From an uncultured Chlamydiales bacterium (GTDB taxonomy: Bacteria > Chlamydiota > Chlamydiia > Chlamydiales > JAAKFR01): 64,000 bases of DNA. Below are positions 46,861-49,800 of this stretch, one piece after another. How positions within the stretch are numbered: the stretch's first letter is position 1; each line of letters begins with the position of its first letter. The position numbers were made by a program. The stretch spans positions 709,327-773,326 of the forward strand of contig OY969414.1 of NCBI GenBank assembly GCA_963699155.1, written 5' to 3'.

Positions 46861-49800
46861 CTGGTTCGATTCCAGTTCTGGCCAAAATTTTAATTTTGGT
46901 CAAGTAAGGAAACCAAAGTATTTGGCTTCCGTCTGGAATCGAAGCGTAGCGCCATGCGAGAGCAGGCGCGAAGCCGGCTCGAACGACAAAGCGCGGTAGC
47001 GCCCCGTTCGCAGGCAAGAGTGGCGAGGCGTTAATTCCGCAAGATGAACCGGAGATTCTTTCACTGACTCAGGTGTTAACCAGGCCCAGGCATTGCGGGG
47101 CCGGCGCGTAGCGCCCCGTTCGCAGGCAAGAGTGGCGAGGCATTAGTCCTGCAAGATGAACCGGAGATTCTTTCACTGACTCAGGTGTTAACCAGGCCCA
47201 GGCATTGCGGGGCCGGCGCGTAGCGCCCTGTTCGCAGGCAAGAGTGGCGAGGCATTAGTCCTGCAAGATGAACCGGAGATTCTTTCACTGACTCAGGTGT
47301 TAACCAGACCCAGGCATTGCGGGGCCGGCGCGTAGCGCCCCGTTCGCAGGCAAGAGTGGCGAGGCATTAGTCCTGCAAGATGAACCGGAGATTCTTTCAC
47401 TGACTCAGGTGTTAACCAGGCCCAGGCATTGCGGGGCCGGCGCGTAGCGCCCCGACGTGAGAGGATTCCATTTCATTCAAAAAAATGTCCCACGCTTTTG
47501 ATCCGCAAAAGAAATTTGTTCTTAAGTGTTATGATTCAGCAACCCTTCCGTTTTGATTTTAAGCTAGTAGATAAAGCATACCGATCGCTTGTACATGGCT
47601 GGCTAGCAAAGCCTCATGTTGCAAAATGGTTTTATGGAGAGGGTCTGCAAAATACTCTCAATCATCTTGACGACTTTTTGGAAGGGTCATCTTTTGCCCA
47701 GTATTGGTTAGCATACGATAAAGGTCACCCTTTTGCTTTCCTTATCACCTCTTCGGTCTGTAAGCCAGGTGATGAATTAACCAAATGGTGCACAAGGGAA
47801 GGGGTTGCGATTACGCTTGATCTACTGATTGGTGATACGAGTTATTTAGGAAAAGGGCTGTCACCTATTTTGATTCGAGAGTTTCTTATCAGTCAATTCC
47901 CTCAAGCTACTGAAGTGTTAATAGATCCAGAGGCGACAAACGCTCATGCTATCCATGTGTATAAAAAAGTTGGTTTTACACTTTTGGGTGAATTTATTCC
48001 CTCTCATAGTCCTCATCCTCATTACATGATGCGATTAGATATGAAAAAGCTAATGAAAGAGAGACCCTGAATTTCTTGGCTTCCGGCTTGCTTCCGGGTT
48101 CTTATTTTTTGAATTGCGCGATGAGTGAGCTATCCAATTTTAAGGCAGTGTGATATTTAGTGCTCTTCGGGATGAGGGGCAATGGTTCTGGTTCGATCGA
48201 TTTCGTGGGTGTGCAAAGTTTTCTTGCTCGCGCTGTTGGTTTCTGGCTGTCAAGTGGGGCCTCGTTACCATCCTCCGGAAATGGTGGTTGCAGAGGGGTG
48301 GAAAGCGCCGCAGGGCATGATGCCTCTGCCACAAGTGGCCTGTTGGTGGGAGATTTTTCAGGATCCGACGCTCGATCACTTGATCAAGCAGGCGATTTGC
48401 AATAATCCCTCGCTAGAGGCTGCGTCGCAGCGGATTGAGCAAGCAAGAGCGATGGCGCAAATGACAAAATCGCGCCTAGTTCCTCAGCTGAATTTTGATC
48501 CTTCAACGAGCAATAAACCGCTCCGTGTTCATACTTTTGGGGCAACCAATACGCCACCACCCACTTTGATCAAAGATCACATTGCGAAGTATGCTTTACC
48601 CTTCACTCTACTCTATGAGTTTGATTTTTGGGGAAAATGGAGAAATCAATATAAAGCGGCCATTTTTAGAGCGGAAGCAGAATGGGAGGGCTACCAAACC
48701 GTATTATTATTTCTGACGACAGACCTTGCCAACCTCTACTTCCAGCTGCGAATTCAAGATGCCCAAATCGAGCTTTTTAGAAAGATTTTAGAAACACGCC
48801 ACACCGCTTCCAATATTCAACAATCTAGATATAGCTTACAGCTTCGCAATTACTTAGATGTGAGTTTTTATCAATTGGATTATTCGACTATTGAGTCAGA
48901 GTATTTTGATGCGCTCAAGCAGCGCATGCTGATTGAAAATCAAATGGCTCTCTTGCTGGGTATTTCGCCCTCGGAATTCACTCAGGGTCCGTTGCCTCTG
49001 ATGGAAAAGCCTCCACACATTCCGGCAACGCTTCCGGCAGCTGTATTGCTGCGTCGTCCTGATTTGGCAGAACAGGAGCGCCGGATGGCTGCCTTTCATG
49101 CAGAGATCAATGTGGCCTACGCCTCCTATTTGCCCTCTATTGATTTAGCAGCAACCTTTGCCTTTCTTTCGAACAATTTTGTGGAAACAATGAGAAATGT
49201 CTGGTCAATAGGAGGTAATCTCACACAAATTTTTTTTGATGGGGGAGCCAGGCGTGCCAATGTCAAACTATTCACCGCAAAATTTAATGAAGCAGTTGCA
49301 CTCTACCGGGAAATCGCTTTAACTGCATTTCAAGAGGTAGAGGATTCTCTTTCTTCTATCAAGTGGATTGAAAATGAAATGGATGCGATTGCAAATGGCA
49401 TAAATGCGATGGAGACTGCTTCTCAAATTTCTTTAGATCGCTATACATTCGGCTTAGCTGACTATTTGGAAGTGGCTAACAACGAACGCCTCACTCTTGA
49501 GCAGCAGCGGCTCTATCTTCAGCTTCTGAGCCAGCTCTACCTGCACACGCTCCATTTGATTAAAGCGATTGGGGGAGGCTGGTAAGTAGCGATGTGGATT
49601 GTGAGATTAGCCCTCGCCAGACCCTATACCTTCGTCGTGGTCTCTCTTGGGATACTCCTCTTTGGCATCTGGTTTATGATCCGTATCCCTAAAGATATTT
49701 TCCCCAATATCAATACTCCTGTCGTCAGTGTGGTCTGGTCTTATCAAGGGATGACTGCAAAAGAGTTTGAAGAGAGGATTACCACGTTTAGTGAATTTTC

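What the first reader, a model, noticed from the sequence alone, without database searches (positions are those of the whole stretch)
46996..47454. Second array of the same family (4 x 112 bp) wedged between tRNA-Phe and a GNAT acetyltransferase gene
The array starts 112 bp after the 3' end of tRNA-Phe and ends 76 bp before the ATG of an AAC(6')-like GNAT gene. Its period is 112, not 111, so it cannot hold a reading frame. The frame that is open in locus 1 hits TAA here, which argues that the family is non-coding.

Copy 1 is visibly older than copies 2-4 (ggcgttaattccgc versus ggcattagtcctgc). That suggests stepwise amplification from one edge. In a tandem arrangement, the 3' end of one unit and the 5' end of the next form a junction hairpin (cggggc-N11-gccccg).
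Basis: seen in the sequence. Interest (0 to 1): 0.65.

Follow-up and report, generated by a model that had tools for sequence, protein, structure and literature searches.

The report
Non-coding minisatellite array beside tRNA-Phe
A 112-bp DNA unit repeated four times between a tRNA gene and an acetyltransferase gene of an environmental chlamydia is a real, non-coding repeat found only in this lineage, of the dispersed-minisatellite kind, with no sign that it encodes a protein or a conserved RNA fold, so it is undescribed but ordinary in kind.

Summary
TRF finds 46991-47454, period 112, 4.1 copies, 97% matches. The array belongs to the same family as the 111-bp x 8.9 array at 30455-31446. I found a third, solitary copy in the opposite orientation at 61704-61805, after tRNA-Ser.

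The family is non-coding. The only open frame in array 1 is what chance gives and has no homologue among 5.8 billion proteins. Array 2 has stops in every frame.

It is not a recognisable structured RNA. There is no Rfam match, fold energies equal those of shuffles, and no compensatory pair is seen across three lineages that are 19-25% diverged.

No relative was found in any collection searched: one genome per species, metagenomes, viral contigs, plasmids and phages.

The host is a Chlamydiales genome. In 10 relatives tRNA-Phe sits in the same place without the array. In one relative tRNA-Phe lies 98 nt before a GNAT homologue, an "empty site".

Each unit is a ~101-bp core bounded by CCCCG/CGGGG, and cores are joined by a short GC palindrome. 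Units are 97-99% alike within an array and 75-81% alike between loci.

My best reading is a dispersed, palindrome-punctuated minisatellite (MIRU/NIME/BIME-like). It arrives as one unit and expands by unequal recombination or slippage. Interest is low to moderate.

The parts
46765..46793 (+). Only sigma-70-like promoter match on the + strand in 46500-48300 (TTTTCA-17-TATGAT). It is placed to drive tRNA-Phe.
   Evidence: consensus match only; the number found equals the shuffle expectation
46811..46885 (+). tRNA-Phe (GAA). Its position after ScpA-Tsp-(M23) is conserved in relatives.
46926..46990 (.). GC-rich spacer before the array. It holds a stray copy of the junction motif GCGTAGCGCC (46944-46953) and an 11-nt perfect inverted copy of the tRNA-Phe T-arm (46933-46943). 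It is not recognisably a family unit.
46991..47002 (+). Left edge palindrome GCGC-GGTA-GCGC, where the array starts.
47002..47102 (+). Core of unit 1. It is the diverged edge unit, with 4 private substitutions in the core.
47103..47115 (+). Junction palindrome GGCGC-GTA-GCGCC. It recurs at 47215-47227, 47327-47339 and 47439-47451. GC is 0.88 here, against 0.38 in the core interior.
47114..47438 (+). Cores of units 2-4 (47114-47214, 47226-47326, 47338-47438). They are near-identical; unit 3 has two singleton changes.
47439..47454 (+). Terminal junction palindrome plus the first bases (CCCCG) of a fifth core, where the array ends.
47531..48070 (+). GNAT acetyltransferase gene (Acetyltransf_8). 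A database version starts at TTG 47498.
48082..48107 (+). Only terminator-like site in the region, just after the GNAT stop codon.
30455..31446 (+). Sister array 1: 111 bp x 8.9 copies, 99% matches. It lies inside the right terminal region of an IS3-family element.
61691..61819 (-). Solitary family copy: core 61704-61805, flanked by palindromes CCCC-GCCC-GGGG (61808-61819) and CGCC-GTTA-GGCG (61691-61702). It lies ~105-120 nt downstream of tRNA-Ser(GGA) 61497-61584, in the opposite orientation to arrays 1 and 2.
48182..54662 (+). Rest of the variable interval between tRNA-Phe and proC: OEP, AcrB and HlyD-type efflux genes and TauE. proC at 54897-55670 is syntenic again with relatives.

Best explanation
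Array 2 is a tandem array of a non-coding repeat family found only in this lineage. The family behaves like a dispersed bacterial minisatellite or intergenic mosaic element.

The basic element is palindrome-core-palindrome. The core is ~101 bp, bounded by the short inverted repeat CCCCG...CGGGG, with a strongly conserved 5' block of about 33 nt. Cores are joined by a 13-23-bp GC-rich palindrome.

Shown:
- The family occupies three unrelated intergenic sites in 64 kb: inside an IS3-family terminal region, after tRNA-Phe, and after tRNA-Ser in the opposite orientation.
- It occurs as 9, 4 and 1 units at these sites.
- Units are 97-99% identical within an array but only 75-81% identical between loci.
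- The array lies between tRNA-Phe and a GNAT gene. In one relative only 98 nt separate these two genes.
- The array sits at the edge of an interval (tRNA-Phe to proC) whose content differs in every relative examined.

Inferred:
- A single unit reaches a site by an unknown route: recombination at the GC palindromes, or mobilisation in trans.
- It then expands by unequal homologous recombination or replication slippage between units.
- The same processes homogenise the interior units and leave the edge unit to drift.
- It most probably has no sequence-specific cellular function.
- If it is transcribed at all, this is by read-through from the tRNA-Phe promoter into the GNAT gene, which would give that mRNA a long GC-rich leader.
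For: - Real tandem array, and family membership.
- Non-coding: stops in all six frames of array 2 and a period of 112. The one open frame of array 1 has no homologue in 5.8e9 proteins, and 87% of shuffled 111-nt units also have an open frame.
- No conserved RNA fold: no Rfam match at gathering score or up to E = 10. Monomer folds have z from +0.4 to +1.4 on either strand. The whole tRNA-to-GNAT spacer has z -0.3. On the best hand-built structure, 0 of 22 pairs change on both sides, and the covariation score equals that of shuffles.
- Concerted evolution: 97-99% identity within arrays against 75-81% between loci, and the edge unit carries private derived changes. A single T/C site in array 1 is distributed in blocks, TCCCCTTT.
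- Insertion at this locus: ScpA-Tsp-(M23)-tRNA-Phe synteny in 10 relatives without the array or the GNAT gene. L043 has tRNA-Phe 98 nt before a GNAT homologue of 83% identity.
- Array 1 is flanked on both sides by sequence of the IS3-family element.
- GC wave: 0.88 at the junction and 0.38 in the core interior, as described for NIME arrays (PMC1797815).
- Restricted distribution: no match in one-genome-per-species, metagenome, viral, plasmid or phage collections, nor in 430 kb of related loci.
Against: - The 5' 33-nt block is much better conserved than the rest of the core (2-4 differences against 17-21; Fisher p 0.02-0.13). This hints at a constraint, such as a protein-binding or recombination site, that pure junk would not have.
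- In the solitary copy two mismatches of a candidate helix are both repaired, and its fold has z = -1.7.
- Only three lineages of the family could be compared, so the absence of covariation has limited power.
- The rest of the 2.4-Mb genome and other strains could not be read. Copy-number variation, which is the hallmark of a minisatellite, is therefore inferred and not shown.
- The route by which units reach new sites is unknown.
Confidence: 0.6

Rival explanations
1. The unit is a small non-autonomous mobile element (MITE/PATE/REPIN-like). A transposase or site-specific recombinase encoded elsewhere in the genome moves it. Arrays grow by repeated insertion into the element's own terminal palindrome, not by unequal recombination.
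For: There are copies at three unrelated sites in both orientations, one of them inside an IS terminal region for which an array-free version of the same IS end exists. The unit has a short terminal inverted repeat, CCCCG/CGGGG, and palindromes on both sides of the solitary copy. Two of the three sites lie just downstream of tRNA genes, which are classic integration spots.
Against: The terminal inverted repeat is only 5-6 bp. No target-site duplication was seen. No similarity was found between the flanks of the three loci, or between the unit and the ends of the IS3-family element. Pfam scans of 60 of the 64 long ORFs of the window (>= 80 aa; four short ones not scanned) found no Y1/RAYT, IS110, TnpB, integrase or RT gene. 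The near-identity of interior units is explained more simply by recombination.
Confidence: 0.15
2. Each unit encodes a structured non-coding RNA (an sRNA, a protein sponge or a new self-cleaving or circularising RNA), and tandem copies raise the dosage.
For: The core has a conserved 5' block and a closing stem, CCCCG/CGGGG. A helix around an invariant 11-nt loop is perfect in the solitary copy. Unit length and tandem layout would suit processing into monomers.
Against: No Rfam family matches, including the small ribozymes. Fold energies are no better than shuffles. No compensatory change is seen despite 19-25 differences between lineages, and several candidate helices are broken in array 1 or in the solitary copy. 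No promoter-like site lies in the unit on either strand. Orientation relative to the neighbouring tRNA gene is opposite at the two tRNA loci.
Confidence: 0.1
3. The array is a cis-acting part of the tRNA-Phe/GNAT transcription unit. It could be a leader or attenuator that sets GNAT expression, or a barrier or processing platform between the tRNA and the mRNA.
For: The only promoter-like site on the + strand is upstream of tRNA-Phe. The only terminator-like site is after the GNAT gene. No Shine-Dalgarno sequence or promoter match lies in the 43-76 nt between the array and the GNAT start.
Against: The same family sits inside an IS end and, inverted, after tRNA-Ser, where no such role applies. 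A relative has the tRNA-Phe/GNAT pair without the array. The promoter and terminator calls are at chance level.
Confidence: 0.08
4. The repeats encode a repetitive protein (37-aa repeat on the minus strand), or they are an assembly artefact.
For: Array 1 has a 329-aa open frame on the minus strand.
Against: That frame is closed in array 2, and a period of 112 shifts the frame at every unit. No protein homologue exists. An open frame is expected in 87% of shuffled units. Conservation between loci is not periodic by codon position and is concentrated in one block. Against an artefact: units carry distinct point differences and a diverged edge unit, and the source is a single 2.4-Mb contig.
Confidence: 0.03

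Closest known systems
MIRU-type minisatellites (mycobacterial interspersed repetitive units; from my own knowledge, Supply et al. 1997/2000)
   Same: One family of 40-100-bp non-coding units is dispersed over many intergenic loci. Each locus holds a tandem array with its own copy number and its own sequence variant. Expansion is by slippage or unequal recombination.
   Different: There is no sequence relation. MIRUs often carry short ORFs coupled to flanking genes and lack GC palindromes between units. Copy-number variation could not be shown here. The host is a chlamydia.
Neisserial intergenic mosaic elements (NIME: dRS3-RS-dRS3 arrays; PMC1797815)
   Same: Units of 50-150 bp are separated by ~20-bp inverted repeats with 6-bp arms. 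Isolated palindrome-unit-palindrome copies also occur. GC shows a wave, with peaks at the palindrome and troughs in the unit (0.88 and 0.38 here). Both are found with IS elements and in variable regions.
   Different: The dRS3 consensus ATTCCC-N8-GGGAAT is absent. Here the core is the constant part and the centre of the palindrome differs between loci, whereas NIME has a constant dRS3 and many RS families. No recombinase or phage that targets the palindrome is known here.
REP/BIME clusters of enterobacteria and their RAYT transposases (from my own knowledge)
   Same: These are extragenic GC-rich palindromes organised in tandem clusters with intervening motifs, lying after genes. IS3-family elements are known to associate with them (IS1397).
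   Different: REPs are 35-40-bp palindromes with a GTAG head, and the intervening motifs are short. Here the non-palindromic core dominates (~90 of 112 bp). GTAG occurs only in array 2. No RAYT gene is found in the window.
BOX elements of Streptococcus pneumoniae (from my own knowledge)
   Same: This is a modular intergenic repeat in which one module (boxB) is amplified in tandem to a different extent at each locus.
   Different: There is no sequence or module correspondence. BOX modules are 45-59 bp. BOX elements are numerous per genome and predicted to fold stably, which is not seen here.

Membership tests
NIME (Neisseria intergenic mosaic element) | Units flanked by the dRS3 inverted repeat ATTCCCNNNNNNNNGGGAAT | tested here: not met
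   The pattern search finds one 1-mismatch hit, at 17704, unrelated to the arrays and at chance level. The junctions read CGGGGC-N11-GCCCCG.
NIME (Neisseria intergenic mosaic element) | Non-coding units of 50-150 bp between ~20-bp inverted repeats, in arrays and as isolated units, with a GC wave | tested here: met
   This shows a likeness in architecture only.
REP/BIME | Imperfect palindrome of 35-40 bp with a conserved GTAG head as the repeated unit | tested here: not met
   The palindromes are 12-23 bp. The ~101-bp core is not palindromic. GTAG is present only in array 2 junctions.
REP/BIME | A cognate RAYT (Y1 transposase) gene in the genome | tested here: inconclusive
   None is found among the 60 of 64 long ORFs (>= 80 aa) of the 64-kb window that were scanned. 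The rest of the genome could not be read.
MITE (miniature inverted-repeat transposable element) | Terminal inverted repeats matching those of an autonomous IS, plus target-site duplications | tested here: not met
   The TIR is only 5-6 bp. There is no similarity to the ends of the IS3-family element in the window, and no duplication is seen at the three loci. Only three insertion sites were available.
Minisatellite / MIRU-like dispersed tandem repeat | One non-coding unit family at several intergenic loci, each a head-to-tail array with higher identity within than between loci | tested here: met
Minisatellite / MIRU-like dispersed tandem repeat | Copy number varies between strains | not testable with these tools
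   No second strain is available. The closest relatives have only 71-72% Tsp identity and lack the family.
Any Rfam RNA family (including hammerhead, twister, pistol, hatchet, HDV-like) | A covariance-model match at or near the gathering score | tested here: not met
   The only matches are tRNAs and sub-threshold noise.
Structured non-coding RNA (generic) | A fold more stable than shuffles, and base pairs kept through compensatory changes | tested here: not met
   z is +0.4 to +1.4 for the array monomers, 0.0 for the two other unit registers and -0.3 for the whole spacer. 0 of 22 pairs show a change on both sides. Power is limited to three lineages.
Protein-coding tandem repeat | A reading frame kept open across family members, with homologues | tested here: not met
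CRISPR array | Short repeats separated by unique spacers | tested here: not met
   The units abut head to tail and are 97% identical over their whole length, so there are no spacers.

The most novel reading that the evidence does not exclude
The palindrome-core-palindrome unit could be a previously undescribed kind of selfish element or recombinase target in Chlamydiae. It would insert next to tRNA genes and into IS ends and then multiply in tandem. Its conserved 33-nt block (CCCGTTCG-AGGCA-GAGTGGCGAGGCATTA) would be the recognition site of an unknown enzyme. Alternatively, and less likely, the unit could be a new processed or self-cleaving small RNA.
Probability: 0.15. Interest if true: 0.55.

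Novelty: new member of a known kind. Interest (0 to 1): 0.27.

Why it matters
Practically, it flags an undescribed repeat family in an environmental chlamydia. The family could serve as a copy-number typing marker. It also marks two tRNA-linked variable spots and an IS end as sites of recombination, and it may break short-read assemblies. Biologically, it shows that the tRNA-Phe/GNAT junction of this lineage was split by a 0.55-kb GC-rich insertion, which may alter GNAT expression. It would matter more only if the conserved 5' block proved to be a recognition site for a new mobilising enzyme, or if the unit proved to be a processed RNA. Nothing found here supports either.

Tried and rejected
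1. Exact-pattern scans failed. The conserved core was scanned against one-genome-per-species, viral and metagenome collections, and a gapped three-block pattern against metagenomes. The first three gave 0 hits. The last gave 22 chance-level hits, which nhmmer and inspection rejected. Distant blastn against plasmids and phages found nothing.

2. I searched the 329-aa frame of array 1 as a protein, hoping that gene callers had annotated related arrays elsewhere. It found nothing.

3. I tried to read more of the source genome through exact protein look-ups (GNAT, EF-G, transposase, P0001). A genome-wide census of the family was therefore impossible.

4. I considered a structured RNA or ribozyme and rejected it as the leading idea.

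5. I first took the junction hairpins as covarying, because the palindrome sequence differs at each locus. However, short GC-rich shuffles fold just as well. The right-hand palindrome of array 1 (GCGCCGAAGGCGC) also shares the 10-mer GCGCCGAAGG with the IS inverted repeat. I downgraded this to suggestive.

6. I looked for island boundaries. There is no second copy of the tRNA-Phe 3' end. The 12/13 direct repeat TTGGCTTCCG.CT that flanks the array plus GNAT gene (46922 and 48076), and a 10-mer shared by the tRNA and the OEP gene start, are at the level expected by chance in 1.4 kb.

7. I checked for flank homology among the three loci and with the IS ends. There is none.

8. I considered integron attC, dif, parS and tRNA T-arm likenesses by eye. 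None has convincing motifs, and I did not pursue them.
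Full report
**Observation**

Tandem Repeats Finder reports an array at 46991-47454 with period 112, 4.1 copies, 97% matches and no indels. It lies between tRNA-Phe(GAA) at 46811-46885 and a GNAT acetyltransferase gene (Pfam Acetyltransf_8, E 1e-15). The GNAT ATG is at 47531; a database version of the same protein starts at TTG 47498.

The array belongs to the same family as the 111-bp x 8.9 array at 30455-31446. The two share an exact 24-mer core in every interior unit, against 0 matches expected in shuffles. 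A profile of the units scores E 1e-33 to 1e-39 on all 14 copies in the window.
- The period is 112.
- Unit 1 differs at four core sites.
- The homologous minus-strand frame meets stops (TGA, then TAA one unit on).
- cggggc-N11-gccccg is present at each junction.

**A third locus**

The same search found a solitary copy on the minus strand, with its core at 61704-61805. It begins about 105-120 nt downstream of tRNA-Ser(GGA) at 61497-61584. Its orientation relative to the tRNA is opposite to that of array 2. The window therefore holds the family as 9, 4 and 1 units.

**Anatomy**

Aligning the three lineages gives a core of about 101 bp that begins CCCCGTTCG and ends GCGGGGCC, so it carries a 5-6-bp terminal inverted repeat.

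Successive cores are joined by a small GC palindrome:
- array 2: GGCGC-GTA-GCGCC
- array 1: GCAC-GGA-GTGC

The solitary copy has a palindrome on each side (CCCC-GCCC-GGGG and CGCC-GTTA-GGCG). Array 2 starts and ends with one.

GC content runs in a wave, 0.88 at junctions and 0.38 in the core interior. The arrays are 57-61% GC in a 48% GC window.

Core identity is 75-81% between loci and 97-99% within arrays. The first ~33 nt of the core are markedly better conserved than the rest: 2-4 differences against 17-21, Fisher p 0.02-0.13 per pair.

**Not coding**

All six frames of array 2 contain stops, and a 112-bp period shifts the frame at every unit. Array 1 has one open frame (329 aa, minus strand). 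However, 87% of shuffled 111-nt units also have at least one open frame. The translated frame has no homologue among 5.8 billion protein clusters.

**Not a recognisable or conserved RNA structure**

- Rfam gives only the two tRNAs at gathering score. Searches up to E = 10 over each of the three variants give nothing relevant.
- Minimum free energies of the array monomers in the TRF register, on either strand, are no better than dinucleotide shuffles (z +0.4 to +1.4); two other unit registers give z 0.0. Only the solitary copy reaches z -1.7.
- The whole 645-nt tRNA-to-GNAT spacer has z -0.3.
- I built the best structure I could by hand: a closing stem, a helix around the invariant GGCGAGGCATT loop, and two further helices. 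I counted its pairs on the six distinct cores. No pair changes on both sides, and the covariation score equals that of shuffles. Helices 3 and 4 are broken in the solitary copy or in array 2, and array 1 has extra mismatches in helix 2.
- The junction palindromes fold no better than shuffled GC-rich sequence (z -0.8 to +0.7).
- With 19-25 differences between lineages, a selected fold should have shown some compensation. The caveat is that only three lineages exist.

**Who carries it, and what relatives show**

The neighbouring genes are ordinary chlamydial chromosome genes: SecDF, GltX, ArgS, EF-G, S7, ScpA/B, Tsp, Obg and a ZnuABC-type transporter.

Tsp finds Chlamydiales MAGs at 56-66% identity in the species-representative set and at most 71-72% in the large protein collection. 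There the 100% hit sits on a 2,399,326-bp contig. The GC content of 48.1% is like the 48.2% reported for Estrella lausannensis (PMC4333871), but I could not verify the identity.

In ten relatives the order ScpA-Tsp-(M23)-tRNA-Phe is kept. Neither the array nor the GNAT gene follows the tRNA.

In the two closest relatives the stretch between tRNA-Phe and proC holds quite different cargo: AbiE toxin-antitoxin genes, dehydrogenases, a transporter and Barstar. In the window it holds array 2, the GNAT gene, an OEP-AcrB-HlyD efflux set and TauE, before proC at 54897-55670. This is a hypervariable, tRNA-linked interval.

One metagenomic contig (L043, Logan SRR28211855) has a GNAT homologue of 83% identity that starts 98 nt after the end of a near-identical tRNA-Phe, with no repeat between them. 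That is the nearest thing to an empty site. It shows that the 645-nt spacer of the window, which contains the array, is an insertion into a tRNA-Phe/GNAT junction. Other GNAT homologues sit in unrelated contexts.

The family profile finds nothing in 430 kb of related and other fetched loci.

**Context of array 1**

An IS3-family element (HTH_Tnp_1 plus rve) with long GC-rich inverted ends lies at about 28.4-30.4 kb. An internally deleted copy lies at 31597-32061.

The right flank of array 1 (31442-31520) is homologous to the outermost right end of the deleted copy (31985-32061). The sequence to its left (30294-30420) is the inner part of the same end. Array 1 therefore sits inside IS terminal sequence, and the deleted copy shows that end without an array.

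The family thus occupies three kinds of site that tolerate insertion: an IS end and two tRNA trailers. The three sets of flanks share no homology.

**How it most likely works**

Three features are the signature of a dispersed minisatellite whose arrays grow and are homogenised by unequal recombination or replication slippage:
- Identity is high within arrays and low between them.
- The outlying edge unit has four changes that are private to it; units 2-4 agree with the other loci at those sites.
- The single T/C polymorphism of array 1 is distributed in blocks.

How a founder unit reaches a new site is not shown. Recombination at the GC palindromes, as proposed for dRS3 in NIME arrays (PMC1797815), or mobilisation in trans are the candidates.

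No transposase other than that of the IS3-family element, and no RAYT, IS110, TnpB, integrase or reverse transcriptase, is encoded among the 60 of the window's 64 long ORFs (>= 80 aa) that were scanned.

By consensus scans the only promoter-like site on the + strand is the one before tRNA-Phe (46765-46793). The only terminator-like site is after the GNAT gene (48082-48107). Nothing is predicted inside the array. If the array is transcribed, it is as a passive part of a tRNA-Phe/GNAT read-through. These scans are at chance level and this step is inference.

**Comparison with known elements**

In behaviour the nearest are MIRU-type minisatellites: one family, many intergenic loci, and a tandem array with locus-specific variants at each.

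In architecture the nearest is the neisserial NIME, with 50-150-bp units between ~20-bp inverted repeats, isolated palindrome-unit-palindrome copies and a GC wave (PMC1797815).

It is not a member of NIME, because the dRS3 consensus is absent. It is not a member of REP/BIME either: there is no 35-40-bp palindrome as the unit, no general GTAG head and no RAYT in the window. It is not a classical MITE (5-6-bp TIR, no duplication, no matching IS end), a CRISPR array or any Rfam family.

**Verdict**

It is an undescribed, lineage-restricted member of a well-known kind of bacterial non-coding repeat.

The unevenly conserved 5' block and the repaired helix of the solitary copy leave about a 10-15% chance each for a trans-mobilised element or an RNA role. 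Interest is low to moderate.

Noticed in passing
window 61872-61936: A 65-bp near-perfect palindrome (32-nt arms, 97% complementary, itself containing a nested palindrome AAAATGACAT...ATGTCATTTT). It lies ~55 nt from the solitary repeat copy, between tRNA-Ser and an ankyrin-repeat gene. It produces spurious sub-threshold miRNA hits in Rfam.
   Followed up: partly
window 28385-32061: An IS3-family element (orfA HTH_Tnp_1, orfB rve) has unusually long GC-rich terminal inverted repeats. It is followed by an internally deleted miniature copy at 31597-32061. Array 1 lies inside the right terminal region of the full copy.
   Followed up: partly
window 46933-46943 vs 46865-46875: An 11-nt perfect inverted copy of the tRNA-Phe T-arm (TTCGATTCCAG) lies 48 nt downstream of the tRNA, next to a stray copy of the junction motif GCGTAGCGCC at 46944-46953. 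It could be a trace of an old integration event, or chance: my own estimate is about 0.2 such matches in a 1.4-kb region (match found).
   Followed up: no
window 46922-46934 and 48076-48088: A 12/13 direct repeat, TTGGCTTCCG(T/G)CT, brackets the module made of GC spacer, array 2 and the GNAT gene (spacing 1154 bp). The right copy overlaps the terminator-like hairpin after the GNAT gene. It is close to chance expectation for the region.
   Followed up: partly
L043 1-170 (Logan SRR28211855): In this relative tRNA-Phe is followed after 98 nt by a two-domain (314-aa) GNAT homologue of 83% identity, preceded by an AGGAG Shine-Dalgarno sequence. The window's GNAT has one domain and no obvious Shine-Dalgarno sequence.
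   Followed up: partly
window 34352-34434: An 83-bp hairpin (39-nt arms, 90% complementary, 5-nt loop) lies in the short gap between the FAD/NAD oxidoreductase gene and the S10/EF-G ribosomal gene cluster.
   Followed up: no
window 60484-60960 and 60992-61465: Two adjacent paralogous genes of ~157 aa with no confident Pfam match lie just upstream of tRNA-Ser. Their first 136 nt are 76% identical.
   Followed up: no
window 25044-25224 and 18251-18349: There are in-gene or gene-edge tandem repeats of 54 bp (inside a DUF11-domain protein gene) and of 33 bp (between an acyltransferase gene and an unannotated 406-aa ORF).
   Followed up: no
window 3597-5513 and 43623-45557: Two Tsp (S41 tail-specific protease) paralogues lie within 40 kb. 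The second is the syntenic one next to tRNA-Phe.
   Followed up: no
window 5952-7575: An HTH_17/AbiEi-like regulator gene is followed by a stand-alone ClpB-D2-type AAA ATPase gene. AbiE-type genes also fill the tRNA-Phe island in relatives L039 and L040.
   Followed up: no
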